64,000 nt of DNA from Schmidtea nova (GCA_044892505.1 CM097883.1:257238001-257302000); one strand, 5' to 3'. Positions 33,201-57,800 are shown, numbered from the stretch's first letter. A program made the numbers and translations. Notes: generated by a model not told the origin, from the sequence alone.

Positions 33201-36152
33201 TTGACAACCTCTTTGTATCTATGGTAATACACACTTAATAAAGCATCTACCGAAATATCGTGTACCTAATAAAAAATTGTTTTGATATAGTCTTACAATA
33301 ACTAATGTGAAAGTTATTGAATTAAAAAATAGATCAAAAGTGAAACCAAAAGAAAATGATAATAAAACTTATAATTAAGCATAAAAGCATGTTAAATAAT
33401 AATATTTGACTTTTTTAAATATATAATAATAAATAAATAATAAATAATTAGAGTGATTAAGTAAATGCAATATTTAGTTTAATATAAAAATAAATAAAAT
33501 AATAACAAAAAATGATAATAAATTGCTAATAAATAAATAATAATATTAAAGTAAAGTAAATAATTAAAATTAATAAATAATAATATTAAATAATATTAAT
33601 AAATAAATAATTTAATTAATTAAATAAAAAAACCAAACAGTAAAACAAAACACAATGTAAGAATCATGCCAAAAAATTGTCAAATCTTTAAACAAAACAC
33701 TTTAAAAATCTCATTAAAAATGCTCGATAACTCATACGGACCCAGATAACTCATAGCTACCTACTCAATTTAATTACAATTACCATAATTATTAGGCAGA
33801 AATTCAAATCAATATGTTAAATTTATTGAAAACACAATTTTTAATTTTAGCATAGTGTAGCAGTTTTAATAAAAAATATCTGGTTAATCTGAAAAGTCCT
33901 ACGTCATTTGATACAGAAAAGTAAATTTGCTGAAACCAAAGAAATAAAAATGTTAATGTAAATTAAACTTAAGTCATTATAACTTGTGAAATAAATTATG
34001 TAATATTTATTTAATAATGATAGAATAAATGTAAAAATTATCAGAAATATAAAGCAACAGAGAATAGCATTAGGTGACATGATAATTAACTAATAATAAA
34101 AACAATGTTTATTTACTAATATAAAATGTCAATAAAGGAAATATTTAGAACAAAACTCTAAATTAACAATAAGGTTAAAAGTGGTGCGATTTGAGATAAA
34201 TTTCGTAATTTTTGCAAATTAAAATCAATTTTGTCAATCATTTAAACAAAGAAATTAAATAAAATATTTATAACTTAAATCGATAATTATAAAACGAATA
34301 AATAGTAATAATACCAAAATACATCAAAGGAAACAAATTTAAAAGGCTGTAGCACGTACATGGGATTAAACATTTAATAAACTTAAAAAATATTTGTCGG
34401 ATGACAGTTTGTTTTTTAAAAAACCTTTAATAAAAAATAAAGCTTTGTGATTCCCAGTACAAAATCACAGTAGCAAACTGCTTTCGAGCTATTGGCTCTC
34501 AACATTGTTGTGCAATAGCCGCGAATATTGCTCTTCACGTCAGGTAAGTATAAAACAAAGTTGGAACAAATTTATTGAATACTTTTCCTGGTACAGCGGA
34601 TACCACATCACTTGAATACTCAAATATGAAATTATTTCAATTCTAATTTTATTTTTATATATTTTTTAATCTTTTTGCTTCGATTTAGTTTAACTCAAAA
34701 TTTTTTGATTGTTGCAGCGGATTCAATAATTATATGAAATTTTGCATTCGTGAAAATAAGAATGACGATACACGAGAAGACTGTTAAAGTAATGGAAAAA
34801 TGTAAAGGGTATTATAGTAGTCAACGAGAAGCTTCATCCTGTTTCCATTCGTGGTCAAAGTGGAATGAGATAAAGCATGAATGCAATCAAGCAAGGTTTC
34901 AACAAAAATAAGAGAAAAGAAGAATTCAATAAAGAGGATTTTGAATTTTTTAGAAGACATTATACTTCAAGATCATGATTAGAAATAATAATTCCAAACA
35001 CAACCATCGGTTTATGAACGGTCATCTCACGCAGATAGAAACTGTGACTAAATTAAAAACTTCTATTAATTAAATAAAAATATTTATCTTATTTAAAAAA
35101 ATAACTTAAAAAAACATGCCATCGGCATAAACACGTTTCACTCTAGATTCTTGTGAATATTGTTTCTTTTTAAAATTATTTATTACGTAAATAAAAGAAT
35201 ATTGAACGAATTTAAAATTTTGGACTTTTATTTTTCCCCTTTAGGCAAGAAGTGCATTTTTCATTTGTGAATTTAAAAAATAATAAATTTGATAAAGATT
35301 TTACATAATGTTAAGTTTATATAAGTTAAGAAGAAATTAATTTCAATTAAAAAAAATTTTAATCGTTTCTTTTTGGTAAGTATTTTCCTTAATTAACCAG
35401 GTAAGCAAGTAGAAGTGATTCTATGGTGCATTTGTCGTACATATACGTCAGGTGAAAATAAAATTATCATTTGCTATGAAAATTCAAAATATTAGTAAAA
35501 ACTTAAAAATATATTGTGTAAATATAAATATTGCTAATTTTAATTACTCACCCAGAAATACATTTTTGAAAATAAACAACTCGCTTAATAAATTAATAGA
35601 ATTGACCCTTGATTTTTCTTCCTTGTGCTGGGATTATGGGTGGGTTTTAAGTAATTCAAATAAACAATTAATCATACTAGGGATTCCGCGCCCATAACCA
35701 TACATAACATGACTACTACACGCGTATGCCCTTGACTATTCCCTACTAGTCAAGTTGGTACTGCATACGGTGGTGGAAAAATGATGGGCAGGTGAGCTTT
35801 GTCGCCAAAACTACTCCCCATTTATCTTCCCTCGGGTTCTTGCTGCCGATAGAAGGTCTTACGCATTTACATTCTATGGATGTTCGTTTCCTACTGAATT
35901 TTATACTACATATACTTATGATCTATCACACGCTTTTCCCAATGACGCTCTCCCTCGCTGTTCTACAAGCCTACGAAAACTCTCGCTGCTAAGTAACGGT
36001 CGGTGTAGGTTTTACGATGCGATTTTTAGTTCTACGAATTACTTATGTAGTCTTATTTTATTTAGTGAAATCCCACGATGAGAGAAAAAATTTACACAGT
36101 AATACTTTATTAAAATAATAAAGACAGGTTGTTATGTTACATGGAGATTTTC

Positions 36153-36737
36153 CTATTCAAACTCCAGGCTAATCTCCTGGATTAACTCTGCTTCGGTTAA
36201 GGAGTTCAGGTGGTGGATTTGTTCGTCCAGGCGCCTTGCAAATTCTCGGCGACGACGACGCTGTCGCGATCCCATTCGATGTTTTCGAAGCTGTGGGTTT
36301 ATGACCGGTGCTGACGCTATTGTTCTCGGGGGATCACTGGGAAAAATAGGCAAATCTTCCGTTGTAAGAGTGGGTGCCATGATGATTTCCTCTTCCGTCC
36401 CGCAAGCGACATCTTGGTGAGTGCATTGTATCCAGCGCTGAGCCGTGATCGGCCGGATTAGCGCTCGTAATTCGGAGTCGATGTAACTTCTTGTTACTGC
36501 GTTCAGGCAATTTCGGAGTTCTCGCTGGACGGCATCTAATTCCAATTTGGTTGTAGCCAATGCTTCCTGCACTCGCTCGAGTTTTTTCGACTGGTCCTTC
36601 ATCTGTTCGGGCGAGAACCACTTCGCTTTCAATTCATCATTGGCGACCGTGAGTCGCTTGATCTGTCGCTGCTGGTCCCTCAGCTTTCTCTCTTGAATTT
36701 GTCCCATGATTTTCTTCGAATTTTCTGAAGTCGGCAT
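36153..36737 (-). CDS. LTR-encoded 194-aa protein (coiled coil, Arg-rich RQRRRRREF); 3' LTR copy
   Basis: ATG-initiated ORF in a locally less AT-rich block, CAG 5 nt upstream, AATAAA (plus-strand tttatt 36106-36111) about 40 nt after the stop. No recognised family. Confidence 0.6.
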   Translation of the reverse strand: MPTSENSKKIMGQIQERKLRDQQRQIKRLTVANDELKAKWFSPEQMKDQSKKLERVQEALATTKLELDAVQRELRNCLNAVTRSYIDSELRALIRPITAQRWIQCTHQDVACGTEEEIIMAPTLTTEDLPIFPSDPPRTIASAPVINPQLRKHRMGSRQRRRRREFARRLDEQIHHLNSLTEAELIQEISLEFE

Positions 36738-37053
36738 GTTGTCTGAAGATTATAACGATAAATTCACTGGAGGGCCTATCAACAATGTTATTTTATTTAA
36801 ACAACTATTATTATTATTAAACGAGATGTATATTAATGTTTTTAATTGTTGAGTTCTCTACAAAATTATTTAACTATCTAATCATTGAAGACTCAAAAGG
36901 TTTATTGAACTAATTTTATATTAATAAATGAATTTCCTAATGGCTATAACAACTACAATACTAAATCTACATGACAACACTATTAACAAAACGAACATTT
37001 CAGAATTCTTTAAAACATTTATTTAATTTAAAAACAGGCGGCCATTGATTCAG

Positions 37054-37530
37054 CTATTCATCCTCGATCATTTTTCCTCGATACGAAAATACCGAGCGGA
37101 TCTGCAAATTTGTATGGATTCCTGTGTTATTGGACGAGGCCTGCTGGAAACGGATTCTCTCAGCTTCTCGGAGGGGTCGGATGGCTGTATTGAACTTGAA
37201 CCCCAATTCCTTGAAGGTAGAGGCTGGAATGAACCCCCAATAAATGACACATCTCGGGAATCCACCTTTGTCCAACATCATGATGAACCAGGCGGCGTGC
37301 CATGATTCGTATTCCTCGTCTGGGATGATTGGCCAACTAGCGCATCCCCGGTACCATACGTGATGCCGTGGATGGTCCCATACTGTAAATGGACAGGCGG
37401 TTTCGAGCTCTCGGCGCCATGCCCACATCTTTTGATGGATTTGCTGTAAAATCTCGAAAGGAGCCGGCTTTAATGGGCTAACTCGGGCTCGTTCTTGTCG
37501 TTTTTTGATAGTGTATCTATGCTTAGCCAT
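37054..37530 (-). CDS. LTR-encoded 158-aa Trp-rich protein; 3' LTR copy
   Basis: ATG-initiated ORF in a locally less AT-rich block with AT-rich flanks. No recognised family. Confidence 0.55.
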   Translation of the reverse strand: MAKHRYTIKKRQERARVSPLKPAPFEILQQIHQKMWAWRRELETACPFTVWDHPRHHVWYRGCASWPIIPDEEYESWHAAWFIMMLDKGGFPRCVIYWGFIPASTFKELGFKFNTAIRPLREAERIRFQQASSNNTGIHTNLQIRSVFSYRGKMIEDE

Positions 37531-39071
37531 GATTCCAAAACGATGCTGAATTTTATAATAGTTACAATTTACATCAATAATTAATCATAGTAAATGTTAT
37601 CTCTCATCGTGATTCCTTTATTATTTGCCTTCCCCTTAGACCTTAGCTGAAATCAAGAAAAAACTGTTGTTTGTTACAGTATGCATTACTCTCGTATCTA
37701 CTTAGCTTTATCGGTTTATGATCAATTTGCTAGACGAAAAAATGGTGATTTGTCTGCTTGGAGTTTCAAAATATTGGTATTTCAAAACGGAAGCTCTCTC
37801 CCGTCATGTATCCCTAGCTTATTCGAAAAACGCTCTTTTGTACCAAACGCGGTCGACATAATTTTCCTAAGGTTTATTAGACGTTTATTAAACAGCTGCG
37901 CTATGGTGAGGGTGAAAAATTGTGCCTCCTCCCGGTTAACAACTTCTTTCATATCTTTAAGCTTTATCAAAAAATTCTCGTCCCCTCTGTAGCTAAAATG
38001 ATCAGAAAATAATTTTCCGGATTTGTTGGGTGTCCCATGTGCAAGTCTCAACCACTACTGATAAAATTATGCTTTACTATTTATTACTTTACCGTGTGTG
38101 GAGCCCTCGAGCACCACGCCACGGACGGACACCTTGGGAACCTAAAGCTCCCAACGGCGCAAAATTAATATGATCATTATATATTTTAATGTTGAGTCCA
38201 ATCACAATAACGTTTAATTCATATAACAAATTTCAACACATGAATGCATAAACACATAAATAATTAGATCAATAGATAAATGACAAAGCAAATGACACAA
38301 TCATGAATAAAATAATACAGAAACCAAAATACCTAATTCGTCTGGGTTTGCTTCGATCGGTTCGTCTAGAATTCAAAGTCTATTTGATTAGTGAGCTAAA
38401 TTTTACACTCTCAACTGACGTTGTAAGATTAGGTATTAAGTCTGTTTTATCCAAAGTCTGATCAGTATTTATACTGATCAGTCTGATCTAGACTGACCAA
38501 TCGGATTTGGCCGATTTCATGGTGGGTTTTAATTATTGTTTTTGATTCTAATTAATTTTTATTTTTTAGATTGTATTCTTCCTTGGAGGTCCGGGTTTCA
38601 AAAACAATTATTCAATAACAAGTACTTTTATTTGGTTTTAATTATTATTATTTGTATTTTATTTGTTTTTAGATGTCTCCTGGGCCCGTTAATATCTGTA
38701 AATTCATTTATTTTTATTTATAGCTTGTACTTAGTTATTCTATATTTTTACTATATTATTCCTTTCTTTTAATAAATAAATATTCCCCTTTTTACCTTAT
38801 TTTTCTCTTTTTTGTTTTAATTAATCTACTTTTATTTCATTTTTTTCTCTATTTGGCTGGCCCAACATCACTCGGGGACCCCTAAAATTGCGTCCCGCAA
38901 TTAATTATACATTTACACCTATATCATCATACATAAAAATTAAGCAGATAAATGTCAATTTACATATACACAAAGAATCACGTAAGGTGATAGATTTTAT
39001 ACGTAAGCACAAAGTCATATTATTGTTAAATGTAAGTGGATCATACATAAAGTGAATGTAATATATCAGTT

Positions 39072-39644
39072 TTACACAAGCTCTTTGATTTCATGATTGG
39101 TATTGGATTGGATAGGGGTTCTTTCGCTGATTGTTCGTAGTTCGTAGTGGCTTTGGATTCGGTTTAGGTGTTTTCTCATTCGCTTTTGGGTTCTGATGTC
39201 TTGTATTGTTGTTCGATTCAGGATGACATGTTTTTGTTTTAAGATCTTCACTCGGTATGATGTTATGAGGATTGTGATCGCGATAATGGTCACGCTGAGT
39301 GCAAGGATTATTATAATTGCGATGATCCATTTTTCTTGATATTCTATCTCTGCTTGGGCTAAGCTTTTTATGGGTTCTCGACCTTCTTTTAGGGTTTTTC
39401 TGATTGTTTTCAATTTGATTCGATGTTCATATAGGACCTGTTGAAATTTTTCATCGTTTGGGTTGTCTGATGTTATCTGTTGAAGTTGGGTGATTTCTTG
39501 TGTTGCTTCGCTGATTAGTTTATCTAGTTCTTGATAGGTTTTCTCGGGTAGGGCTCGTAGCTCCTTCTCTGTGAGTTGAAGATCTTCTCTTTGTAGGGTG
39601 ATTGTTATTAGGTATAGGAATATCGGTATTCGGAGCTTTTTCAT
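39072..39644 (-). CDS. 190-aa putative type I membrane protein (signal peptide, helical ectodomain, TM, basic tail)
   Basis: MKKLRIPIFLYLITITLQ N-terminus, WIIAIIIILALSVTIIAITILITSY hydrophobic span, heptad-like middle. Confidence 0.7.
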   Translation of the reverse strand: MKKLRIPIFLYLITITLQREDLQLTEKELRALPEKTYQELDKLISEATQEITQLQQITSDNPNDEKFQQVLYEHRIKLKTIRKTLKEGREPIKSLAQAEIEYQEKWIIAIIIILALSVTIIAITILITSYRVKILKQKHVILNRTTIQDIRTQKRMRKHLNRIQSHYELRTISERTPIQSNTNHEIKELV

Positions 39645-39726: not shown

Positions 39727-40788
39727 TTACACAATCGTCTCGTTTGGTTCGTAGAAACCTTCGTCCTGAGGTTCTACCTGGTTCGTGGGGAGTGGTATCC
39801 AAACAACCCTGCTCCTCCACATTTCGACTTCATCTCGATACATGTGAGATATCTGGATCTCCTCGTCCAGCAAATATTCTAGGTAATTTGCTTGTTCTGT
39901 TAATGTTTCTATTTGCTTCTCTAATTCGATTACTTTTGTCTTTTGTTCGTCTTCTTTCATCATTTTTGTTACGGCTGCCGTTGTACTTGTTTCTTTGGGT
40001 ATTGCTAGTACTGTTACTCGTTTCTGTTTCAATTCTTCGTTTTCTTTCATCAAATTCGTTAAATTTTCCTCATAACTTTGCTTCGCTTCCTTTAACCTTT
40101 CTCTGGTTCTTTTTAGCTCTATTTTCTTCTGGGTAATCACTCCTTGATAACCATTTATATCTCTCTTCATCTCTTCTTCTTTCTGATTCCATATTCCGGT
40201 GAGCATAGATTTCAGTTGTTCTTGATTAGCTAGTTCTTCTCCCATTCTTTGAACTTGATAGGTTAGTCCTTTAATTTTCTTTGCTTGTTCGCGGATAAAT
40301 TGCTGTCTTTTTGTATTCCATCTTTTATTTAACACTTCCTGGTTGATTTTTTGCTCTAACTCGTCTTTTAGTTCATCGATCTCTTTATATAACTTCCAAT
40401 CATCACTATAAGCTGTCCTTTCTATTATTTCTCTAGCTTTTTCGTAAGATTCTTTCGCTTCTTTCTTCCAGTATCTTGCTTGTTCTGTAATCGAATACAT
40501 CTTGTGTTCAGCTTCCATCTGCTGTCTGTCTCTTTCCTCTCGTCGCTCTTTCATCATTCTCTGGTAATATTCCTTTTGTTGTTGTAGCATTTTGTATACT
40601 TCTTCTATTTTTTCTCGACTTCTTTGACTTGATCTTTCCGCTTCTTTTAATAATTCGGCTTGTCTCTCTATCTCCTCTTGCTTTCCATAATATGCATTGA
40701 CCCATATTTCAATCTGTTCTAGATGATCGCTAATCGCTTCTGTTTGATGCATCGTAATTTCCTGTAAGCATACTTCGATATTTCCCAT
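39727..40788 (-). CDS. 353-aa coiled-coil protein of element B
   Basis: Long ATG-initiated E/K/Q/R-rich ORF with heptad character; no recognised domain. Confidence 0.75.
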   Translation of the reverse strand: MGNIEVCLQEITMHQTEAISDHLEQIEIWVNAYYGKQEEIERQAELLKEAERSSQRSREKIEEVYKMLQQQKEYYQRMMKERREERDRQQMEAEHKMYSITEQARYWKKEAKESYEKAREIIERTAYSDDWKLYKEIDELKDELEQKINQEVLNKRWNTKRQQFIREQAKKIKGLTYQVQRMGEELANQEQLKSMLTGIWNQKEEEMKRDINGYQGVITQKKIELKRTRERLKEAKQSYEENLTNLMKENEELKQKRVTVLAIPKETSTTAAVTKMMKEDEQKTKVIELEKQIETLTEQANYLEYLLDEEIQISHMYRDEVEMWRSRVVWIPLPTNQVEPQDEGFYEPNETIV

Positions 40789-40909: not shown

Positions 40910-42286
40910 TCAACCATTCTTTCTATCCGCTTTCTCATTCCTTTCCATTTCTATGTATAGGGTGTCTGCATGTAATCGTTCCCATAGGCTTTCTTTCGTT
41001 ATAAACATTGGTTCTCCCGCTGCTAATCCACATTCTGTGGTTGGTTTCTCGCTCGTACTCGCATGTTTCTCTGTCTCAAAGAATTTTTCTACTGGTTTTG
41101 TTACACTTCTGATTCTAATGATGACTCCTACTTTCAAGGGCCATTCTACTAGGTCGTCGTATTCTCCTTTACATAGCGAGAAAAATATTGACACATGTGT
41201 TCCTCGTCCTCTTCCGTCTCCATTTGGGTATAGCTTCAATCTCACTTTAGCTCCGTTTCTCCATAAATAAAATGGTGGGCTTATTACTGCTGTTTTCGTC
41301 ATATTTCTGGCCTCTGTTAATTTGTTTCTAAAATCTGTCACTTTCCACACATATGGTGCGATTGGTAACTTTTCCTCGGTATCCTGGGTGAGTTTGTTGT
41401 ACTGGATTTTCATTCCTTTAGCCAATTCTTCGATAGCTTTTATCTTTTCCTCCATCTTTTCTCGTGTTAGTTCGAATTGCTCTCTGGTTTCCAACAGTAG
41501 GTTTACCATTATCTTGTGTGACTCTATTTCTCTTTCTAATTTTTTGATTGTTTGTTCGGTTTCTTTTGTTGCTTCGTTTGTCATTTCCGCATGCTTTAGC
41601 AATGCTTCCTCCAGATGTTGTTTCATGGTTTTTTGCGTTCTTTTCTCCATACATCTCTGTTTGTTATAAGGGCATTCCCTTGGTTTCTCCGTGCACACTT
41701 TCCAATGTTCTTGTAATTTTACTTCTGCCGTTATCTCGCATTCGTTTGAACATATTCCTACATATTGTCTACATACTTTCTCCTCTTTTACATTCAGGTG
41801 TTCTTCTTCGATCTTTCTCCTCGTTTCTCGAGTTCCACAATATTCGCATAGACTTTCCTCTTCTTTACATTCATCTTTGTGCTGCTCTTTATTCTTTATA
41901 GTTATTTTTTGTTGGCATTTGTTACATTCGGTTCTCTTCTCCTCGCAGTTCTCCAGATGGTTCTCGAGATCGCGTATTTGTCCTTGCCATATACATGGTT
42001 GATTTATACATTCGGTTTTCGTGTTCATGATTTCTCTCTGAGTTGCTCTATCTGGTCCGGTTTCTTCGAATTTTATTTGTCCTTCTTTGCATTCTGGACA
42101 TTCTGGTGGTCTTTTCATACTTAACTCGTGTATGCATTTGGTACATACTCTGCATCCGCATAGGGTTTGTCTTGGTTTCAATATTATGTTTTTACAATTT
42201 ACACAAGTGAGTCTCTGACTCCATTTCCTGTTCTCGGCTCTCAAAATTTCGATTATCCGCTCTTCGGCTTTTCCTTCTGTATTCAT
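40910..42286 (-). CDS. traf: TRAF-family protein (RING, TRAF zinc fingers, coiled coil, MATH/TRAF-C), 458 aa, intronless
   Basis: RING CVNC..KPRQTLCGCRVCTKC..ECPEC; TRAF-type zinc fingers (HLENCEEKRTECNKC, HWKVCTEKPRECPY); MATH hallmarks YVWKVTDF, SPPFY, LKLYPNGDGRGRGTHVSIFF, GEYDDLVEWP. Confidence 0.93.
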   Translation of the reverse strand: MNTEGKAEERIIEILRAENRKWSQRLTCVNCKNIILKPRQTLCGCRVCTKCIHELSMKRPPECPECKEGQIKFEETGPDRATQREIMNTKTECINQPCIWQGQIRDLENHLENCEEKRTECNKCQQKITIKNKEQHKDECKEEESLCEYCGTRETRRKIEEEHLNVKEEKVCRQYVGICSNECEITAEVKLQEHWKVCTEKPRECPYNKQRCMEKRTQKTMKQHLEEALLKHAEMTNEATKETEQTIKKLEREIESHKIMVNLLLETREQFELTREKMEEKIKAIEELAKGMKIQYNKLTQDTEEKLPIAPYVWKVTDFRNKLTEARNMTKTAVISPPFYLWRNGAKVRLKLYPNGDGRGRGTHVSIFFSLCKGEYDDLVEWPLKVGVIIRIRSVTKPVEKFFETEKHASTSEKPTTECGLAAGEPMFITKESLWERLHADTLYIEMERNEKADRKNG

Positions 42287-42377
42287 TCTACAATGATATA
42301 TACACTTGATTTGTTATCTATTTTTTGATTTTTCTTGTTTTTGTTTTTACATATTTACAATTTTTCGCTTTATTTAT

Positions 42378-42734
42378 CTACGGCTCGTTTGTTGAATCTG
42401 GTTCTGGGTCATTTTCTGATCTGTTTATTGCCCAATTTGTCCATCCATCCTCTGCTTCTTCTGTCTCTCCCATTGTTAAACGGTCTATCTCTATTGCTTG
42501 TCTCTGATTTATGTCGCTCATCACTTGATTCTCTCTGGTAAGTTGCGTTATCAATCTCTGTTGCTCCTCGATTCTGTGGAGTTGTTCAAAACTATTATTA
42601 TAACTTTCGGATAACAAATTCTGTTTCTCAATTAACTGATTTTGTAGTGAGTTGATTGTTCGTATTAACATGTCACACTGGGCTTTCCATCGCATAGCCA
42701 TAGTAGTTTCTGCTATTTCTTCCTGTTCGTTCAT
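42378..42734 (-). CDS. 118-aa coiled-coil protein with acidic tail
   Basis: ATG-initiated, heptad pattern, same strand and spacing as neighbouring accessory ORFs. Confidence 0.6.
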   Translation of the reverse strand: MNEQEEIAETTMAMRWKAQCDMLIRTINSLQNQLIEKQNLLSESYNNSFEQLHRIEEQQRLITQLTRENQVMSDINQRQAIEIDRLTMGETEEAEDGWTNWAINRSENDPEPDSTNEP

Positions 42735-42859: not shown

Positions 42860-45800
42860 CTATATCACCATCACTGTCTTTCCTTCGTATCGCTCTTCAT
42901 CTTCTATTTGTCTCCAAAATTCTTTACCTTTCGTCCTCCTTTGGAATTCTTTATGTACTTCTTCCGGTAATTCTATACTGTAGTTCATAATCTTTATATC
43001 TGGCCAATGTGTTATTGGTTTCTTGTTGAATACATCATATATCCATATTATTAATAATACTGTTATTACTGGAATAGTTGCTGCTAGTATTCCTAGACCA
43101 ATTAGTTCTCTAACTTGTTTGTTTACGTCCATCTTCGTAATTTCACTCTGGTTAATCATTGGTCCATATTGTCCCTTTAGTTTATTTAGTAGTTGTTCTC
43201 GTTCTTGTTGTTTTCTTTTAACTTCTTTAATTACTTCTTCCGGCGTCCATCTTGCGTAAGGGTCTATTACTATTTGTTCCGCGTCCATTTGTTTCGTTGT
43301 CTGACTTAATTCTTTAAATTCGAGTTTTCTCACTTTCCCTTTGGACGTTGAGTTTACCGGTGTGTAGTACGTTTCGCATTTTTCCTGCTGATTTCCTAAT
43401 ATGTCCGTCTTTTCTACCGCACATATCTCGTATTCTCTATTAAATTTCAGATTTTTGATACTCATTTCTTCTTTTCCTTTTACGTTTTCGCAGTATCGTG
43501 GCTGTCTTTCTTTTTGTTCCTGGACTACTGCCCAACATATTTCTAACGTTTTATTGTCTATTCTCCATAGTATAAGAGTTGCTGTAGTATTCTTTTCGGT
43601 TTTTATTTGTATTTCTTGGTTTTTCTGTTGTCCATTAGGTTTAAAAGTAGTGGTATACCTCGTTTTTCCTTTGTTCCGTTGCCTTCTGCTTTTTCGCGTT
43701 GTCTTTCCAATTCTTGTTCTGGTGGGTGTTTTATATATTTTGCATTCCAGTTCATTTACTGTTATTTTGTCGCTCTTCCTGATCAGGCATATTTCGTACG
43801 TTTGATTACTTTCTAACCCTTCTATCTGTATTGTGGTTGTTCCTCTGTTTGTTCGACATTGCGGCGGTGTATTCTGGTTTGTTTTCTTTTCCTGCTTCTT
43901 CCAGCATACGCCTTTGACGTCCGGTTCTATTCCGGTTAACTCTAACATTATAGTTGTTCTCCGTTTGGTGCGTTTATTTCTTCTTCCTCGTCGTATGAAC
44001 TTCATTGTTTCCCCAGGTTGAAATGTTTTACAAATCGTCGTTCCTTTCTTGTGTCTTTCTTTTTCTAGTAAACATAGTTCATACGTCCTGTCTGCTTTTA
44101 CTTCTGATATCTTGGTTACTTTATTTGTTTTCCTTTTCCGACTCGTCTTTATTTCGCTTACGCCAATTTCTTCGTTGCTTCTGGCCCAACACTTTGGGTT
44201 GGTGTTTTGGGTGTCGTTCATCTCTGTTACTGCCATTGTGTCAATGTCTATCCCTTCTTCTAACCGTTTTAACATTGTTAATATGAGTGCTAAACATAGT
44301 AATTCTGCTTGGTAGGTCACTCTTTCAGTTTCATTTGTGGTTACTCTTACTTCGGGCCTGTCTATGGTAATTTGTATAGTTGGCGTTGTTCGTCTGTCTA
44401 TTGTCTGATGTTTCTTGTTTTTTGTTCCTTGTGTCTCTGTTCTTCCACACTTTCTTACGACATAGTCTCCTTTGGATGACTGCTGTACTGTTATGGTTAC
44501 TTTGGGTGTTAGGTAATTTGCACATGCAATTGTCTTATGTGATCTCGGATCCTTTGGTTTCCGAACGGTGCACATTCTGTACCAAGTATCTAGCTCTAAG
44601 TCATCGATCTCTATGATTTCTTGCTCATATTCTGAGATCCTGCAATCCATTGGACTATTTTGTCCCGATATTTTGTCCTTTTTTGACCAACATACTCGTT
44701 CGATTCCTTTTGCGTTTCCAATTTGTATTGTCGCTTTTTCTTCACATATCATTCCTTGAGTTGGACTAATTAAGGTCATGATTACCGTTAGTAATAATAG
44801 TTCTGGTTTAAAGAATGGGTTTATTGTTTGTTTGTAGCCTGTTCTTTTTACTTCGTTTTTATTTTTATAGTTGTTGTTTCTTTGTTTCCCAAATTCATTG
44901 TTCTTATCATTTTTCTCTGTGTCCCTTCCTTTCTCTTCACTGTCCTCTTTATCTGATAACTTATGATCCTCTGGATTTTCTCGAGTACTATCGTCGTCGT
45001 TTCCTGTATTGTCACCTCCCCTTTGGTCGTTGAACATGTCGTCCTCGACATTAATTGTTTCTATCATTTTTTCATACGTTATGGTTGTGAGTATACTTGC
45101 TTCGTATTCTTGTGTTTCTGCTTGCTTAGGTATTTCCTTATCGGTTAATTTACAATCTAGAATCTCTTTCTTGGCTTTTATCCAATTATTAAGGTACGTT
45201 TTCATTAGTTCTTTCCATTTGTCCGTACGTTCTGTTTCCTTTGGGTTGTTTGTGAATCGTAAATCTTTTCTTCTCATGAAGATATCTATTATCTTTGGCC
45301 ATTTGTTTATTATTAATGCACACTTTATATACAAATTTTGGCCTTGTTCCATGCACTCGTTGATCCTGAATGCTGGTTCATTGGTGTTTGGGTTCATCCA
45401 ATTGAGTATTGCTTCAGTTAGTTCAGCGTTATGCATCATGGAATGTACGCTAGCTTTTTTAACTGTCCTTGTAAGGTATTCTATTTCCTCCTGATTTGTG
45501 ATTGTTTTTATGAAATTTATCACCTCCCAATTGTGCGCTAACAACGCTACGTCTAGTATTGAGCTGTCTTTGTTAGTTCTTCCCATGAGTCCTGCGCCTG
45601 CTTCGTACAGTTCCTGTAACACTCGGGTTTTTGTGTTCGCTCTTGCTGCGAATATCATGAGGGTGTCTCCCTTTTTATCTTTCATGTTCATGTCACTTCC
45701 GCAATCTTGCATCAACCGTGCAATTTCGACTACCCTCCTATTTTTTCCTGCTCGTAAGGCTCTATGTATTGGCAATACTCCATTCTTTGTTAATAAGAAA

Positions 45801-48800
45801 GTCACTGGCATTTCTCTTTTTATGATCATCATATCGTTTTCATTGTAAGTTCCTTCCGCATATGCGTGTACCTTTTCCACAATTGATCCGAGTATCTCCA
45901 GTGTATGTTTAGAATTTTCGAATTCTGGTAATAGTTCTTTTGCTTTGTCCTGTATCGCATCTAACCTTTCTTGATATGGTACCTCTGCGCTGAAAAGTGG
46001 TGTAACTTTCCTTTTGCTTTCTCTTTCCTTTTGACATAGGAATTGTTTGCATTTTTCGGGGTGGTTTAATATGTCTATTAGTTTGTCATACTCTTCCTCC
46101 ACCGTTTTGTATTTATCTTGAAAATTGGATATATCTTTGTAAGTTATCGTCTTGGTTAGCGATTTTGCACACCATTCCCTAATTTTCCTGAATAATGCTT
46201 CTTTTTCACTTTCGAATTTACACTCCTCTTTGTTTTTGGAAATTATGATATTTCTTCTGTCTAATAACGTTAACAGTGCTTTCTGGTCACAAACGAATTT
46301 TAATAGGAATTGTAATAACGTGTTTTGCCCTTCACTGTATACCTCGTTTATATTTAACACCCATGTATCATTTTCGGATCTTTTCCATTTTATTAGCTTG
46401 CGTATTGTTTTGCAGTTACCGATTTTTATTGCCTCCTTGATTATATCACCTTTGATCAGTTCGTCTATTTCCCAAGTGGCCTTCTCGATTATTTGTTTGA
46501 GCATTATCTGATTTGAGCTCCATATTGCGTGATTCAAGACTGTTTTGTTTTCTCTATCGCGTTCCGTCCAGTTGAAATCGGCATTTATCAAAAGGTCTAT
46601 TATTGCTTTATCCGATTTGTAGATGGCTGCTACCATTAATGGTGTTTCTTGTTCGCTATTCCAAAAACCAAGGTGTTGGTTTGTTTCCTTAGCGATTTTT
46701 AGAAATTCTTTTACTCTCTCTACTTCTCCCCATTTTATGGCGTTATGTAATGCTGGTTGTCCTCCTATGTCTTCTAGTGAAAGTATTTCTGGAATCTTTT
46801 CCAGTAGTTCTGAAATGACTGGTTTTGTTGGTAGTCCCCTTGCGTAATCACTAATTATCGACTGAATATCTCTTAATATATCGTCTCTGACATGCCATTT
46901 TCCCATTATTTCTCTGGCTTTTAGTACAATTTCCTTGTTTCTTTTTTCTCGTTGATTGTTCTCTGCTTCGGTACTTTCATTGGTTGCTCTGAGCATATTC
47001 ATTCTGGCTGTCTGGGATCTGGTTATTATTCGTTCTTCTGGCGCTGTGGTTATTGTCTTTGGTACTTTTTTACATCTGCATGTATTAACGTATATTGGTC
47101 GTATCAATGGTCGATTAACAAGTTTTACCTTCACATTGTTTTCCTTTTTGTATATAACTTCGTAAGGGCCTTTTCCTGGTCTTTGTAGTTTTTTAACGGT
47201 TCCTGGTATTATTTCTGGGGTTTCTATCATCACCCAATCTCCGGGTTTAAGATCATTTGTTTTAACATTTTTCTTTTGATCGTGTAGGTCCTTGTAACTT
47301 TCTTGATAAAACTTTATGTTTAGTTCTGCTGTCTTCCATATCTCTTGCATTCGTTCTTTGAATTTGGTGACGTAATCATCTTCCTCCATATATTGAGACA
47401 AAGGTGGTTGATATTCAAGATCTATTGGCATATTGCATTCCCTTCCATACATTAATTGAAATGGACTCAATTTTGTTGCTGCGTGTATCGACATTCGGTA
47501 TGCCATTAGACATAGCTTTATGTACTCATCCCAATCTGTTTGGTGTTTGCTTACATAATTGGATAACATTCGAATCAATGTGCCGTTAAATCTTTCCGTT
47601 TGTCCATTAGTTTGCGGATGATATGGTGACGTTCGTAATTTGGCTATTCTGAAGTAATTTGTTACTTCATCTAGTATTTCGCTCATAAAATTTGTTCCTT
47701 GATCTGTTAGTATTTGTTTCGGGGTTCCGTATCGACAACATATTTCCTCTACTAAAATTCTTGCTACGGTCTTTGCTTTTTGATCCGGCATCGCAAATGC
47801 TTCAGGGAATTTAGTCAAATAATCCGTTATTACCAATATATATTGATTCCCGTTTAAACTTTCTGGCAATGGTCCTATTACATCCATCGCAATGGTAGTC
47901 ATTGGTTCCGCTGGTATTGGCATGGGTTTTAAGGGATTTTTCCATTTCTTCCCACTATCCTTTCTTGTGGCACAAGTTAAACAGTTCTTTATCCATTCCT
48001 TTACGTCTTCGTCCATTGTTGGCCAATAATATTTTTGTCTCATGCGATTTAATGTTTTCTTATCGGACATGTGTCCTCCCAACTTTCCGTCATGGTATTG
48101 AGTTATTATCTCTTTTCGTCTATTACCTGGCAGACACATTAATCGTTTCTCTCCATCTCGTATTAATAACCATCCTTTTTCTATTGTGTATCGATGTTGG
48201 TATTTCCTCATGTGTTCCTTTAACTCTGCATTGTCTTTGAATACATCCATATTTCGTGAGCTTAGGAATTCTATGATGGGTCTTAGTTCTTTATCCTCTT
48301 GCTGATCTTTCTTTAACTCACTGAAATCCAAATCCTCTGCTATCATTATGCATATTCTTTGCACTTCTGGGTCTGTTAGTTCTGGAAACGTTAATCTTGA
48401 CATGCAATCTGCGTTGGCATTCGCTTTTCCTGATTTGAATTTTATATCTGGTGAATATTCTTGTAATTGCATCGCCCATCTCATTAATCTGCTGGATGTT
48501 TCCTTATGTTGTCCTAGCCATACAAGTGGTTGATGGTCTGTGGTTATGCATATGACGTGTCCCCATAATAGATATTTGAAGTGTTTTATTGCTAATATTA
48601 TTGCCAATGCTTCTCTTTCCGTTACTGAATAATTCTTCTCGTGTTTCTTGAATGTTCTGCTATAATATCCGATTACCCGCTCTTTTCCCTCGTCATCATA
48701 TTGTCCTAACACTGCTCCTGCTGCATATCCACTTGCGTCGGTTGCGAGTAAAAATGGCTTTTTGAAGTCCGGGTGAACCAATATTGGTGCAGTTATTAGC

Positions 48801-51800
48801 TTATCTCTCAATGTTTCAAAGGCTGTTTGTTGTTCGCTTCCCCATATGAACGATACGTCTTTCTTTACTAGCTCCTGGATTGGTTTTGCAATCCCTGCGT
48901 AATCCTTTATGAATTTTCTATAGTAACCGCATAATCCGAGAAATTCTTGGATCTGCGTTATCGTCTTTGGTACTGGACATTCTTTTACTTTATCAATGTT
49001 TCTGGGATCTGGTTCCTTTCCTTTTGCGGACACAATATGTCCTAAGAATGTCACTTTCTCCTTTGCCCAATCGCATTTCGATGGTTTGAGCTTGAGTTTC
49101 CATTGTCTCAATCTAACAAATACATCTCTGATATCTTGGATGTGTTGTTCAAATGTGCTTGAGTAGATCAGTAGGTCGTCAATGTAAACCATGCATTGTT
49201 TTATGCCGTGGGTAACGAAATTCATACATCTTTGAAATGATGCTGGCGCATTGGTTAGTCCGAATGGCATTTTCCTAAATTGGTACAAGTCTCTTCCGAT
49301 AGTGAAAGCAGTTTTCTCTTTGTCTTCCTCCTTCATTTTAATTTGCCAGTATCCGCTTTTCAAATCCAATGATGTAAAATATGCCGCTCCTTGTAATGTC
49401 AATAACATCTCGTTGATGTCCGGTAATGGGTAGGTATCCCTTTTTGTAACTGCATTTAATCTCCGATAATCGATACAAAATCGTTGTGTTCCGTCTTTCT
49501 TTTTCACCATTACAACTGGGAATTGCCACGGTGAGCAGCTTGGTTCAATTACTTCTGCGTCTAGCATTTTCTGTACCTCTGCTTCTGCTACTGATTTTTG
49601 CGCTTCAGCTAACTTGTATGGTCTTAACGCAATAGGCGTTTCGTCTGTTAGGGGAATCGTATGTAGTGTGACGTCGCATGTCCCTAGATCTAAATCGAAT
49701 GCTGCGAATATATCTTTATATTCTATCAGTAATCTTTCTAGCTGCTTCTTTTGATCCTCATTTAATAGTTGGCTATCAATGTTCCAAGTGGGTTCCTCCT
49801 CTTTTACTCCTTCTTTTATTGGTATTTCGATATCCATCATTGGAGTTAGTTTACCTAGTCTTTCATTTTCATAAATTATTTTATCCTCTTCATCGAAATT
49901 TACTACAGTTATTGGGATTTCTCCGTTGTCATTCGCACTCACTAATCCCCTTGCCATTGGCAACGACTTTCTCTTTTCAAATCTTTTACTGGGTTCAAAA
50001 ATCATGTCACCTTCTATTGTAGGGTCTATTTTTACGAAGCATATTTTCTCTCTCCGTGCTGGTACGATTATTTGTTTCGAACTTGTTACTTTTGCTTCTA
50101 TTGCGCATATCTGTCCTGTCCTATCCTTTAATCTCATTGTTCCGAGGTCAATAACTATTTCTTTAAATAATGCTGGCATCAGATCCGTGCCTATAATGCA
50201 TGGTACGCTCAGTGCTGGTATTACTGCTACGTACGTTTCGATTTCCGTGTTTTGATGTTTTATCTTTACCCACCATCTTCCGGCAACTTCTACTACTTCT
50301 TTACTGCATGCTATTACGTGAACGTTGGTTCTCTCAATATCCCGTCTTTGTTCTTGTGGTATCCATTTTATATCTATTGCTGAGATATTTGCTCCTGTAT
50401 CAATCATCGCTTCAATTTCCCTTCCGTTAATTTCGATTGTTGTAGTTAATACTGGACCGGTGTTTGATGACATTACTGCAATTGTATGTGAGTCTCCTTG
50501 CGGATCTACGCTTCTGCACCGTCTCGTTCTATAGTCTTCTGGTATCATAGGATATATGTTTGTCATCGGCATCATTTGCATTGTATTTTGTCTCATCCCT
50601 GGTGTTGGTTCTTGGTACATGGTTGGTGGGGGTGCGTAACACTTCCACATTTCCGCTGGATTCTTTTCGACATACTGTGGTACTTGATTTTTAAATACTT
50701 GACCTCCTTCGTTATCATCATCATCGTCGTCACTGGAATCGTCTTGGGTTCTGTACCCTTTCATTCTTTCCCATAGTCCTTTTCTCTCTTTCTTTAGTTG
50801 TTGTCTTGCTTGCTCGTTATTCATTATCTTTTTAAATTTTCGTCCCACCTCTTCATCGGTTCCTTTCATTTTTGCCAGTATTTTTAGGAGTCTCTTTATT
50901 CGGTGAATATCTTTCGAATGACCGTGTAATACCATTGTTTTAGCCAGAAATGGTAAGAATCCTACCACCAATTTCCAATTTACTTTCTTTTCTCTTTTAT
51001 AGATGTCAAAACAGGCTAACATTTGCGTTATTATTACCCGTATTATTTGTATAATTAGTATAACACCAAGTATTCCTGCCATCATTTGTCCAAATATTAA
51101 AAATCTTCCCCACATCGCTTTCATCATGTTTTCCGTTGCCTTCTTAAAGTGGGCTGGTGACAATAATAATTCGTAATTTGGTCCACCTTGGTAATTTGTT
51201 CCTCCTGTTATTGTTACAATACTGGATAACACCGCTTCTCGTCTTGCCGGAAATAGTATGTTTTGTCTTGCTGCTTCTAAATCCTTTGCGCTATAGAATC
51301 CCATATTGCTTACGTCTACGTCTTTAAATTTTCGTCCTTTTGATAGTTGCATCAATTCAAATTCCCTTGGTGCTGGTACCTCTGTTCTTGACGGAAACAT
51401 AACCCAATTTCCGTCTGGTTTTTGGTATAGTGGTCCATATGCGTTGCTGCAATTGAAAGGATTTGGTTCGAAGCTTATTGGATTTATGATTCTTGTCACT
51501 GGTTGTACATATCTTACTTTCCCTTTATATTCGATTTCTAGTTCGTTAGTACACTGACCTGGTTGTAGTTTTGTCATTGTCGCTACCTTCGCATTTGTCT
51601 TTTTACATATGTATACGTACATGACCTCTCCGACTACTCTTCCAAAATGACCTTCTCTTAATGGTAATAATGGCATTGCACTATCCGGGTTTGTGATTGC
51701 TACTGCTAATTTTGTCTTTAATATTTCCCTATTTAATATGCAATCGTTGTTTATTAAATCGTAATACACTTTTTGTAGTGACGCTTGTCCTCTATGGAAT

Positions 51801-54800: not shown

Positions 54801-57800
54801 TGGATGGTTTGGTGATTATCCCATATACCAATTTTATATAGCCGTCTTTCATCGTGATCCCATAATACATGTTCGTTGTATTTCATGATTATGTCATCTT
54901 CCCATTCTTCTTCTGGTTCTCTTTGTAATAGTGTCTCGTTGATGACATTTACTAATTCTTTTATGGTACAATCTGCTACCACTTCAATTTCTTTGGTATC
55001 CTCATTAGGTAACTCTACTGCAATTTTCAGATCTGTTATTTTCCCTTGTCTGAACATTGCTTTTCCCATTTTTGCAATTACTTTTCCGTATGAGATCTGT
55101 GACCATCTCGTGTGACTTGTGTCACGTATGCATTCGATACATCGTTTCAACTTTTCGTATTCGCTTCTCATTAACTCCTTTCTATGTTTTTTGATTTGTG
55201 GGATGATTTGTTCTATCATGGAATTTAGATTTCCTCGTAAGATTCGTCCTTTCTCATATTCTAACCGTGGTTTTATCTTCCTCTCGAAACACATATTTGC
55301 TTCTTTTGCTACTTCTTGTAGGTTCTCTTCTCTCTTATCATCGCATATCGATAATGTTGTCACCTCTCCTGGCCATATGCCTGTTTCTATCAAATGCGTC
55401 CTTTTCTTCACTAGTCCATTCTGTGAATAGAGGAATTTGTTTTTATATGAACTCCCTAATCTGTCTTCCACCCATTGATAAATATCTTCCGTGAGTGGAG
55501 TTTTGATCCAAATCCTTGGCAAACATGTTTTTATCTCTATTAGGATTATATATTCATGGAGTGGTTCTTTTAATAATTTTCCTACGTATTGGCTTAGTGT
55601 TTCTACTTCCCGGCCTGGTAACCACTCTTTATAGTTCATTTGTAATATTGCTCTCATGAATTTTCTATAGTGTTTCTTGTCAATGAATTCCTCATTATAT
55701 ATTACTTCTAGCGTATTATCTAATAATTTCTGGATCTCGTCTTCTTTTACTTGAATAGTTTCTGGTGTCTTTACTACTTCTATCTTTTTGTCTTCAATTT
55801 CCGGTTCGTCTAGCATGTCCCCTGCTAGACTACTGACGTCACTATCCTCTTCATCGTCTGAAAAATTCTTTGCCTGGCCTCTCAACATGTTAATGTGTTT
55901 TATCTGGTTAATTTCACTTGGTGTATTTTCCGTTGGTCTTGTTTCACTTTTAATAGCTTTTTGTGTTGATTCACTCTTGTCGTCTACTACTTCGACCTTT
56001 CTCAATTTTCGTTCTAACTCGTCTATTTCTCCCAACCGTCTTCGTATCATTTTCCCTTTAAATATTCGACTGATTCGTGTTTCGTGACGCACTGGCGATG
56101 GAATTCCTTCTGGTTCTATTTCCTTGATTACCATCACATTTCTTTTTGTCTCTACTACTCCCATGTTTTCCCATGTATCCGTTAGTTTCAATTTTACTTC
56201 TGGTGCACCTTCTATTTTTAGGAATGCTTCTCTGGGCAGTTTCGTTACTCCTGGAGCCATTTCATTCACTTTATTGAACAATATTTCTACTTCTTCCTTT
56301 ATGTTATATTGGAATCGAAACACGTGCTTGTTTGGCAAAATTACCATCATTCCTCTTTTCCCGAGTTTCCTTTTCTCTTCTTGGTTCCCTTCTTTTTCTA
56401 CTTCCTTTTCTGTTTCTTTTTCTGCTTCTTCATCTTCTTGTATTATCTCTTTTCGGCCTTCGTTGTTGGTTGGATTTGGGTTTGTTGGATTTATTTCTGG
56501 TACAGTCTCTTTCTCGTGGGTATTTGTTTGATTGGTTGCTCTCATCATATTAATTCTTAGAGGTTGTCGTTCTCTTTCTTGCTGTTTTTGTTCCTCTTCT
56601 CTTTGTATTCTTGCCCATTCCTGAGCATGTCGTGCTTGACTTTCCCGATTCAATCGTTCGTTTTCGCTTTCTATTTTTCTCATCATATTGATTTGTTGTT
56701 GACCTGTTTGCGGATTTCCTCTGGTTGTATTGTTTATCAGCTCCGTCAATCTTTGGACCTCTTGCATTAAATGTATCTCTTTAGTGGTATTTTTATTTTG
56801 GTTATTATTATTACTATTTGGTTGGTTTCCGTATTCCGGTTGGTTTCCATTATTTGGCTGATTTCCATAATTCTGTCGGTTTCCACCAGTTGGTTGGTTG
56901 CCATAGTTTTGTCGGTTTCCGGTATTCTGCCAGTTTCCTCGTTGATTGCTTCTTTGTCCGCAATTTCTTGATAGGTGTCCAGGCCGTCCACAATTAAAAC
57001 AGGTTATTGTGTAACATCTGCTCTCTGAATGCCCTTTTACTCCACATTTTCCACAATTCAAGTTCTGATAACATTCTTGTTGCCAATGTCCCAATTTCCC
57101 ACATGTTTTGCATTGTTTCGTTGGTCCTTGGGGGTTGTAATTGTTTTGATTTCCGTAATTTGATACTTTATTCCCTTCATTCCTTCGTTGCGGTGGTGGT
57201 CGGTTTAATTGTTGTGAATTTGGAATGTGGTTATTCAGGTTCACTTCTTGTTCGTTTTGTGCTGTATCCATAGCTAAATAGATTCTACCATCATTTCCTA
57301 TCATGTGTAGTTCAAATCTATTAGCTGTTTCTAGTGCTTGGTCGATGGTTTTACAACCTTGACATCCAACTTGCGCTCTTATGTCGGGTCTTCTTAATCC
57401 TCCCACAAAGATAGCTGCCATTAACTCCTCATTTATTGGGCTGTCTTGATTAAAGATCAACTTTGCTAACTTTTTCAATTCGCTTGCATATACCGCATTC
57501 GATTCATTTATCTTTTGTTTCCTCATTGAGAATTCCGTGAATGCCTCATTCAATACTTTATTTATTCCAAAGGTTTGTTGGAAAAAGTCCTTTATCGCTG
57601 ACCAACTTGTAGGTGGATTAGTTCCATTCTTTGCTTCCAAATATAGATCTAATGCGCTATCTTTCAAATATAGCTGAATTCTGCTTACAGTTGTTTCTGG
57701 TTTCCACTTGCATACTTCCACGAATATGCCAAATTCCTTTAAGAAAGTTTCTAATTTACTCGCATCTCCATTAAACGGTTCTCCGGAAAATTTGTCTTTT

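What the first reader, a model, noticed from the sequence alone, without database searches (positions are those of the whole stretch)
40910..42286. Complete intronless TRAF gene carried as retroelement cargo
Seen: all TRAF modules intact in the 3' region of element B. Established: TRAFs are adaptors/E3 ligases for TNFR and TLR signalling; planarians are reported to have expanded TRAF repertoires. Inference: the element may rewire or decoy immune signalling, and some annotated host TRAF expansions may be retroelement-borne copies.
Basis: partly seen in the sequence, partly recalled or inferred. Interest (0 to 1): 0.74.

Follow-up and report, generated by a model that had tools for sequence, protein, structure and literature searches.

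The report
Full TRAF gene in Burro retroelement
A giant flatworm jumping gene of the known Burro kind carries its own complete copy of a host cell-survival and immune-signalling adaptor (TRAF); TRAF pieces in these elements were already reported, but the whole intact gene suggests the element uses it to steer host cells.

Summary
42286..40910 (-) is an uninterrupted 458-aa TRAF2/3/5-like gene: C4C4 RING, five zinc fingers (28 of 28 zinc ligands intact), coiled coil and MATH domain. It lies between a 5,140-codon gag-env-pol frame and the 3' LTR of a 28.3-kb element with identical 3,242-bp LTRs and a 4-bp target duplication: a Burro-type planarian retroelement.

TRAF cargo in Burro is already published at domain level, including a MATH_TRAF_C accessory ORF beside a 5,140-aa ORF1 (PMC6431247). 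So is the idea that Burro meddles with apoptosis and ubiquitination.

Added here:
- The gene is complete and sits 3' of the polyprotein.
- Its silent sites match the element, not neighbouring genes, so it is a long-term resident.
- It groups with four similarly biased TRAFs; one is fused to Burro-like polyprotein sequence and two lack MATH.
- All five accessory ORFs have a splice-acceptor-like YAG just before their ATG.
- Its receptor-binding groove is altered.

Best reading: a captured, selected accessory gene acting as a modifier or decoy of host TRAF survival/immune signalling (function inferred). The share of host TRAF expansions that is element-borne could not be tested.

The parts
40910..42286 (-). 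Complete intronless TRAF2/3/5-like gene, 458 aa
42089..42205 (-). TRAF RING, C4C4 variant (aa 28-66)
   Evidence: Pfam only E=0.056
41591..42010 (-). Five TRAF zinc fingers (aa 93-232), 20 of 20 ligands; finger 3 has the insertion shared with planarian TRAF-2
41378..41602 (-). TRAF-N coiled coil (aa 229-303)
   Evidence: one continuous helix at high pLDDT
40943..41353 (-). MATH / TRAF-C domain (aa 312-448), peptide-binding loop diverged
60687..63928 (-). 5' LTR, 3,242 bp
35626..38867 (-). 3' LTR, identical to the 5' LTR
   Evidence: 0 mismatches in 3242
35622..35625 (.). Target-site duplication CTTG (other copy 63929-63932)
60663..60680 (-). Primer-binding-site-like 18-mer, 6 nt inside the 5' LTR; resembles a tRNA-Pro PBS (recalled, not tested)
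   Evidence: sequence; identity recalled
60553..60598 (-). Two splice-donor-like GTGAGT sites in the leader (60598, 60558); a third donor-like site at 59620
   Evidence: motif match only
59898..60359 (-). Upstream accessory ORF, 153 aa, XIAP/cIAP-type C-terminal RING, no BIR detected
   Evidence: zf-C3HC4_3 E=8.7e-12, no BIR family listed; XIAP RING E=4.7e-11
42860..58282 (-). 5,140-codon stop-to-stop polyprotein frame (first Met at codon 154): gag with zinc knuckles, env-like fusion glycoprotein, PR, RT, RNase H, integrase, ankyrin repeats, C-terminal membrane-anchored region
42378..42734 (-). Accessory ORF, 118 aa, probably coiled coil (inferred), no credible family
39727..40788 (-). Accessory ORF, 353 aa, probably coiled coil (inferred from composition), no Pfam family
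39072..39644 (-). Accessory ORF, 190 aa, predicted single-pass membrane protein; its tail has one PxQ motif (PIQSN)
   Evidence: weak complex support
42287..42377 (-). Spacer upstream of TRAF: AATAAA, TGTAAATA and a YAG 1 nt before the ATG (acceptor-like)

Best explanation
This is a young, intact insertion of a Burro-type giant gypsy element (env inside the polyprotein). Long ago its lineage captured a processed copy of a triclad TRAF2/3/5-like gene and has kept it under purifying selection as an accessory gene, like the host-derived accessory genes of complex retroviruses. SHOWN: position between the LTRs, completeness, intact zinc ligands, element-type silent sites, and an element-type group of relatives, one fused to polyprotein-like sequence. 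INFERRED: it is translated from its own processed mRNA, made by splicing from a leader donor (or by spliced-leader addition) to the YAG just before its ATG. INFERRED: the protein trimerises through its coiled coil and MATH, possibly with host TRAFs. With an intact RING/finger scaffold but an altered receptor-binding groove, it competes with or dilutes host TRAF complexes. That dampens the innate/stress output (TBK1, TAK1-p38/JNK) and favours survival of the cells, probably stem cells, in which the element is expressed, alongside the element's IAP-type RING and ankyrin cargo.
For: Anatomy. Ligands 28 of 28. Four-fold sites A/C/G/T 81/21/23/9 do not differ from the polyprotein (p=0.43) but differ from the two 7TM-like genes (p=9e-9) and from gypsy element C (p=5e-7). 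Tree of 31 rows: the query groups with P0143, P0029, P0041 (97/90), and with P0013 added (96/95); the grouping persists after 4-state recoding (SH-aLRT/UFBoot 89.8/96 and 85/81). These 5 rows have a KERTQM/LFSYPD ratio of 2.1-4.3, against 0.77-1.30 in the other 26. P0143 residues 6-66 match polyprotein aa 1184-1244 (E=4.7e-6; best of 200 shuffles 0.13) and run straight into TRAF fingers; it was the only one of 17 tested to do so. This fits the published place of MATH_TRAF_C inside Burro1 ORF1, before the ubiquitin-like and BCL2-like motifs. YAG lies 1-3 nt before the ATG in 5 of 5 accessory ORFs, against 52 of 497 ATGs in the internal region (p about 1e-5). Two element-type relatives keep RING, fingers and coiled coil but lack MATH, which fits a scaffold or decoy role. 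Literature: planarian TRAFs are needed for cell survival, are induced through TBK1 by wounding and nucleic-acid injection, and traf2-1 restrains infection pathology.
Against: No expression, splicing or activity data. No DNA of other copies, so no dN/dS. The genomic context of P0013, P0029, P0041 and P0143 is unknown; 'element-borne' is inferred from composition and, for P0143, from one 60-residue match. Shared composition can itself pull rows together (7 rows failed the composition test). The deeper nodes are open, so no donor gene is identified and triclad monophyly is not shown. The C4C4 RING also occurs in an outgroup row (P0001). The host baseline for silent sites is only two presumed host 7TM genes (189 sites). 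Loss of MATH in P0029/P0041 could be decay of dead copies. A decoy role is not separated from an activating one by any test here. The host-like planarian TRAFs also differ from TRAF3/5 at the serine stretch of the groove.
Confidence: 0.52

Rival explanations
1. Self-contained signalling mimic: the element encodes both a small membrane protein (190-aa ORF) with a TRAF-binding tail and the TRAF that reads it, giving ligand-independent survival signalling, as EBV LMP1 does with host TRAFs (LMP1 mechanism recalled).
For: The tail has the only PxQ motif among five element products scanned. A co-fold of TRAF aa 265-458 (3 copies) with the 64-aa tail gave weak support: 0.48 against best control 0.00, run agreement at least 51%, partner pLDDT at least 38. 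The mark was reached by 51 of 78 solved complexes and 2 of 108 mismatches; scores of 0.60 or under held 5 of those 78 solved complexes and all 4 passing mismatches of 180.
Against: The tool calls such a pass more often wrong than right, and solved TRAF-peptide complexes may be recalled from memory. PIQSN is not a full PxQxT (consensus recalled). By my rough estimate a PxQ is expected by chance in a 64-aa tail about 15% of the time. The groove aromatic is replaced by Ser412.
Confidence: 0.13
2. Retargeted ubiquitin ligase: the changed MATH groove binds a new substrate (for example a silencing or sensing factor), and the RING marks it for degradation, possibly with the element's IAP-type RING.
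For: The RING ligands are intact, and the RING lacks the TRAF2-type insertion after the last cysteine pair, aligning there like TRAF5/6. The groove is changed but MATH is predicted to fold well. A second RING gene is on the element.
Against: Residues next to the first cysteine pair are Asn/Lys where TRAF6 has Ile/Leu (their role in E2 binding is recalled). Two relatives lack MATH altogether. No substrate is known.
Confidence: 0.17
3. Host-beneficial cargo: the TRAF works as a normal extra TRAF that supports stress survival and regeneration, and the element persists partly because of it (mutualism as reported for the Burro1 IAP).
For: Complete canonical architecture. Host TRAF loss is lethal. 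Burro1 B-IAP is reported to protect stem cells (second-hand).
Against: The groove change and the MATH-less relatives argue against a plain functional copy. It overlaps with the best explanation and cannot be separated without experiments.
Confidence: 0.12
4. Neutral passenger: a recently captured host mRNA, intact only because this insertion is young.
For: Identical LTRs mean this copy had no time to decay. None of 67 related giant polyproteins carries a TRAF, so these elements do not need it in the polyprotein.
Against: Silent sites are fully converted to the element's A-rich bias. No relative above about 46% identity in any domain. Ligands are invariant within the element-type group. TRAF sequence is retained in Burro of two species.
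Confidence: 0.05

Closest known systems
Burro-like element of Dugesia tigrina (Arkhipova & Yushenova 2019, PMC6431247; section 7 read whole)
   Same: 5,140-aa ORF1 (the stop-to-stop frame here is also 5,140), gag with knuckles, env between gag and protease, MATH_TRAF_C absent from ORF1 and carried by an accessory ORF.
   Different: The paper names only the MATH_TRAF_C domain and places its ORF upstream. Here the TRAF is complete and downstream, and the upstream ORF is an IAP-type RING. That element was not shown, so this may be the same family described loosely, or a sister family.
Burro1/GYPSM1 and Burro2-4 of Schmidtea mediterranea (Jurka 2007, Grohme 2018: not seen, cited through PMC6431247)
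   Same: Giant gypsy element with multi-kb LTRs, ankyrin repeats, TRAF and apoptosis/ubiquitin-related cargo.
   Different: MATH_TRAF_C lies inside a 4,873-aa polyprotein, and BIR is present. Here TRAF is a separate gene and no BIR was detected.
Burro1 B-IAP (Lee et al. 2026 Dev Cell: not seen, cited through passages of PMC13465017)
   Same: Host-derived RING-bearing cargo in Burro, reported to protect stem cells from apoptosis.
   Different: A different cargo; no such test is known to me for the TRAF.
Planarian host TRAF2-like family (D. lacteum TRAF-2, UniRef T1DF65; Smed-TRAF-2A/B)
   Same: RING-5 fingers-coiled coil-MATH, C4C4 RING and finger-3 insertion (shown for T1DF65).
   Different: Only 26-36% identity per folded domain to T1DF65, ordinary composition, aromatic kept in the MATH groove. 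Smed sequences were not compared.
Virus-encoded TRAFs (fish iridoviruses, giant viruses)
   Same: A mobile genome carrying a host-derived TRAF (structure hits E=2e-17 to 1e-10).
   Different: Large DNA viruses, 13-21% identity; most likely independent captures (not tested with a tree).

Membership tests
TRAF family (TRAF2/3/5 type) | C-terminal MATH/TRAF-C domain of the TRAF1/2/3/5 group | tested here: met
   Pfam E=1.9e-21; PDB TRAF5/3/2 E=1e-22 to 4e-21, TRAF4 about 2e-13, TRAF6 MATH 1e-7 or weaker
TRAF family (TRAF2/3/5 type) | N-terminal RING with eight zinc ligands | tested here: met
   8 of 8, as C4C4 variant rather than C3HC4
TRAF family (TRAF2/3/5 type) | Five zinc fingers followed by a coiled coil | tested here: met
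   20 of 20 ligands; helix aa 229-303
TRAF family (TRAF2/3/5 type) | Canonical receptor-peptide groove | tested here: inconclusive
   Y353, NGDG and F403 kept; Ser412 replaces F/Y and Glu425 replaces Cys of TRAF3/5; which positions form the groove is recalled
TRAF family (TRAF2/3/5 type) | Trimerisation, receptor binding and E3/adaptor activity | not testable with these tools
   needs biochemistry; the one co-fold scored only the partner
Burro giant LTR retroelements | Gypsy PR-RT-RH-IN order in a giant element with multi-kb LTRs | tested here: met
   28,303 bp, 3,242-bp LTRs, domain order; somewhat under the >30 kb of Burro1
Burro giant LTR retroelements | Single polyprotein of about 5,000 aa with env in frame between gag and protease | tested here: met
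   5,140 codons; PF24664 E=1.4e-69 before RVP
Burro giant LTR retroelements | Ankyrin repeats and TRAF/RING cargo | tested here: met
   Ank_2 E=7.6e-14 after integrase; TRAF ORF; IAP-type RING ORF
Burro giant LTR retroelements | BCL2-like, ubiquitin-like and dUTPase-like motifs in ORF1 | tested here: inconclusive
   Bcl-2 Pfam E=0.12, Ubiquitin_4 E=0.041, dUTPase none; no PDB sequence hit; model pLDDT 46 with only non-significant Bcl-xL matches; Atlas blank
Burro giant LTR retroelements | BIR domain (present in S. mediterranea Burro) | tested here: not met
   no BIR family among the 14 frames scanned; so not Burro1 itself but a Burro-like family
Burro giant LTR retroelements | RT groups with published Burro sequences; host is a dugesiid/geoplanid planarian | not testable with these tools
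   no named Burro protein among the 67 hits; host inferred from architecture and from the D. lacteum relative

The most novel reading that the evidence does not exclude
The 3' cassette is an element-encoded signalling module expressed from its own spliced mRNAs. A membrane protein with a TRAF-binding tail, a dedicated full-length TRAF, an IAP-type RING and ankyrin repeats together build a private survival/immune-dampening pathway in planarian stem cells. A compositionally recognisable part of the reported planarian TRAF/MATH expansion consists of such Burro-borne genes rather than host genes.
Probability: 0.15. Interest if true: 0.8.

Novelty: new variant of a known kind. Interest (0 to 1): 0.42.

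Why it matters
Burro elements are the main case of an animal LTR retroelement loaded with host apoptosis and ubiquitin genes, and one cargo (IAP) is reported to help regeneration. A complete, separately encoded TRAF can be knocked down and assayed on its own, which tests whether the element also manipulates innate and stress signalling. The A-rich signature gives a simple way to sort the 121-282 planarian MATH-domain/transcript counts (PMC6109357, PMC7586133) into host and element-borne ones, which affects RNAi and expression studies of 'host' TRAFs. The core fact, TRAF cargo in Burro, is not new.

Tried and rejected
- Assembly or annotation artefact: rejected; TSD, TG...CA ends and a colinear full-length protein. 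Identical LTRs could be partly an assembly effect, which I could not test.
- A host gene with the element inserted around it: rejected; the gene lies between the LTRs, and its spacers and silent sites are element-type.
- RING decay (His to Cys): rejected; shared with D. lacteum TRAF-2 and 11 other aligned relatives, one of them an outgroup row.
- Word-index homologue search: 11 hits of 3,676 candidates, 22-30% identity for the longer matches, uninformative. The profile search gave 19 of 6,082, one of them named.
- TRAF inside related giant polyproteins: 0 of 67 by HMM.
- Other accessory ORFs against 12 env-bearing relatives, 3 TRAF relatives and the window's polyprotein and element-A gag: no hit.
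- BCL2-like region: not confirmed.
- My first RING regex gave false positives from zinc fingers; the ligand table replaces it.
- Names and taxa of most TRAF hits stayed unknown.
- Supplements of PMC6109357: 0 hits for PF00917/MATH/TRAF in 6 readable files; Additional file 1, which lists the MATH transcripts, could not be read.
- Grohme 2018 and Lee 2026 are not held, so they may already describe a full-length TRAF.
- Searches for a printed description of a complete TRAF in an LTR element found only the domain-level account in PMC6431247.

Full report
OBSERVATION. The minus strand holds an ORF from ATG 42286 to stop 40910, 458 aa with no interruption. Pfam finds MATH at aa 312-448 (E=1.9e-21) and a TRAF zinc finger on the middle segment (E=1.8e-6). 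The best solved relatives are TRAF5, TRAF3 and TRAF2 (E 1e-22 to 4e-21), ahead of TRAF1, TRAF4 and TRAF6. Pfam does not call the RING on the whole protein, but aa 22-126 align with TRAF2/5/6 RING-finger structures (E 5e-10 to 3e-8). All 28 zinc ligands of the RING and five fingers are present. The fourth RING ligand is Cys, as in D. lacteum TRAF-2 (P0030, named). The AlphaFold model from a 16-row alignment has mean pLDDT 85.6, with a helix at aa 229-303 followed by the beta-sandwich (pTM 0.40, as expected for an elongated monomer). It is the only TRAF-like frame in the window.

THE ELEMENT. The LTRs are 35626-38867 and 60687-63928, identical at 3242 of 3242 bases, with TG...CA ends and a CTTG target duplication; the total is 28,303 bp. 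On the minus strand the order is: PBS-like site, a 153-aa ORF with an XIAP/cIAP-type RING (E=4.7e-11), a 5,140-codon frame, then four accessory ORFs of 118, 458 (TRAF), 353 and 190 aa separated by 82-125-nt spacers, then the 3' LTR. The long frame holds gag zinc knuckles, a fusion-glycoprotein env (PF24664, E=1.4e-69), protease, RT, RNase H, integrase and ankyrin repeats. BCL2-like and ubiquitin-like motifs gave only weak signals (E=0.12 and 0.041; no confirmation).

WHAT IS KNOWN. This is the Burro architecture. Arkhipova & Yushenova 2019 (PMC6431247; passages, section 7 whole) report MATH_TRAF_C, BIR, ankyrin and BCL2-like motifs in S. mediterranea Burro, first noted by Jurka 2007 and Grohme 2018 (neither seen). 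[quoted passage not shown] Lee et al. 2026 is reported to show that a Burro1 RING+BIR product protects stem cells (not seen; passages of PMC13465017). BURRO1 RNA is abundant and rises when PIWI is lost (passages of PMC8532177). The planarian TRAF/MATH expansion is in print: 121 domains (passages of PMC6109357) or 282 contigs, most lacking RING and fingers (first sixth of PMC7586133). The latter text has no hit for transposon, intron, retro or Burro. Four searches found no description of a complete TRAF in an LTR element, but the two most relevant papers could not be read. TRAF capture by mobile genomes has precedent in iridoviruses and giant viruses.

IS IT A RECENT PASSENGER? Identical LTRs mean the intactness of this copy proves nothing by itself. 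But the four-fold degenerate sites (A 81 of 134) match the polyprotein (A 1038 of 1686; p=0.43). They differ from the two 7TM-like neighbours (p=9e-9) and from the unrelated gypsy element C (p=5e-7); the host baseline is small and presumed. The exhaustive search listed 150 of 4,894 hits. I used 19 of those 150 plus 11 unnamed rows. The other 131, mostly multi-MATH proteins and canonical TRAFs of unknown origin, were left out, so the tree has no named TRAF2/3/5 reference. The query groups with P0143, P0029 and P0041 (97/90) and then P0013 (96/95). In a 24-row tree recoded to four states the same groups hold (89.8/96; 85/81). These five rows have a KERTQM/LFSYPD ratio of 2.1-4.3, against 0.77-1.30 in the other 26, which fits A-rich coding but can also bias the tree. 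Independent of composition, P0143 begins with about 60 residues that match polyprotein aa 1184-1244 (38% identity; E=4.7e-6, best of 200 shuffles 0.13; 1 of 17 relatives tested) and continues into TRAF fingers. This points to a sister element with TRAF fused inside the polyprotein, near where Burro1 is said to have it. Within this group the finger ligands that are covered are invariant at 39-42% finger identity, which indicates purifying selection. P0029 and P0041 lack MATH. Deeper nodes are unresolved, so the donor gene is not identified; the planarian origin rests on the shared C4C4 RING and finger-3 insertion with the D. lacteum protein. None of 67 related giant polyproteins carries TRAF; 12 of them have env in frame.

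EXPRESSION. A gene behind a 15.4-kb frame needs its own mRNA. All 5 accessory ORFs have YAG ending 1-3 nt before the ATG, against 52 of 497 ATGs in the internal region (2 of 43 in non-coding parts); p is about 1e-5, for a pattern noticed before it was tested. Three donor-like sites lie in the leader. Four of five 3' spacers hold TGTAAATA, 6 copies in 433 nt against 0 in the 15,420-nt polyprotein frame, and two hold AATAAA. The inference is subgenomic spliced mRNAs as in complex retroviruses, or operon-like processing by spliced-leader trans-splicing, which flatworms use (search listing and abstract starts only). No RNA data were available.

MECHANISM. The RING and finger scaffold is intact, while the MATH loop that binds receptor peptides (its role is recalled) is changed. 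FETEKHASTSEKP stands against FK(A/P)DPNSSSFK(R/K)P of TRAF5/3, and Ser412 replaces an aromatic kept in 12 of 12 MATH-bearing rows outside the element-type group; P0013 has Met there. Host planarian TRAFs are required for cell survival, are induced through TBK1 after injection and wounding (passages of PMC13563047), and traf2-1 limits infection pathology (passages of PMC4993586; review passages of PMC7958881). The most likely role is a modifier or decoy that enters host TRAF complexes and shifts signalling toward survival and tolerance of the element (0.52). The rivals are a retargeted ligase (0.17), a private receptor-adaptor pair (0.13), a host-beneficial normal TRAF (0.12) and a neutral passenger (0.05). 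For the private pair, the 190-aa membrane protein's tail holds PIQSN. A co-fold with three copies of TRAF aa 265-458 gave weak support: 0.48 against best control 0.00, run agreement at least 51%, partner pLDDT at least 38. In calibration, scores of 0.60 or under held 5 of 78 solved complexes and all 4 passing mismatches of 180, and the pass may come from memory of solved TRAF-peptide complexes. It is a lead only.

VERDICT. The feature is real and correctly described. TRAF cargo in Burro and the host-meddling idea are already published. The complete gene, its 3' position in an acceptor-marked cassette, the element-type TRAF group and the altered groove are additions I did not find in the papers I could read (passages of PMC11410931, have no TRAF mention). 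Whether element-borne genes inflate the host TRAF count is plausible and testable but untested: most close relatives in my tree look like ordinary host genes. Novelty: new variant of a known kind; interest 0.42.

Noticed in passing
window:25461-25574 (-), inside LTR 25162-25765 of gypsy element C (19971-25765); same sequence in LTR 19971-20573: The 604-bp LTRs (99.2% identical) of an ordinary gypsy element contain a nuclear-receptor C4 zinc-finger fragment (Pfam zf-C4 E=3e-7): a possible captured host exon in an LTR.
   Followed up: no
window:1-9066 (-): A related element (A) with LTR-end similarity of about 80%, a 1,030-codon gag frame 50% identical to element B's gag with extra zinc knuckles, a 56-bp tandem array at 4561-6094, and no pol or TRAF match within the window; possibly a non-autonomous partner.
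   Followed up: partly
window:42860-44815 (-), polyprotein aa about 4490-5140: After the ankyrin region: a signal-like hydrophobic stretch, repeated Cys/Trp-containing beta-like units (fibronectin-III-like by eye; no Pfam hit) and a transmembrane segment: a receptor-like cargo.
   Followed up: partly
window:59898-60359 (-): Upstream accessory ORF with an XIAP/cIAP-type RING but no BIR, a reduced counterpart of the Burro1 B-IAP.
   Followed up: partly
window:36153-36737 and 37054-37530 (-); copies at 61214-61798 and 62115-62591: Two ORFs (194 and 158 aa) inside the LTRs, no Pfam family, with composition unlike the internal region.
   Followed up: no
spacers at 42735-42859, 42287-42377, 40789-40909, 39645-39740 (-): TGTAAATA occurs 6 times in 433 nt and 0 times in the 15.4-kb polyprotein frame. 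It fits a Pumilio response element, a CFIm enhancer or a weak splice donor (all recalled).
   Followed up: partly
proteins P0199, P0201, P0204-P0208, P0210-P0214: 12 of 67 giant polyproteins carry the same fusion-glycoprotein env in frame before the protease and are 48-53% identical in pol: Burro-like gag-env-pol elements from unnamed records.
   Followed up: partly
window:18461-19444 and 29360-30412 (-): Two intronless 7TM-like paralogues, 72.5% identical, on either side of element C (only the first was scanned, E=1.4e-4).
   Followed up: no
window:12950-18300: A family of short inverted-repeat (MITE-like) elements.
   Followed up: no
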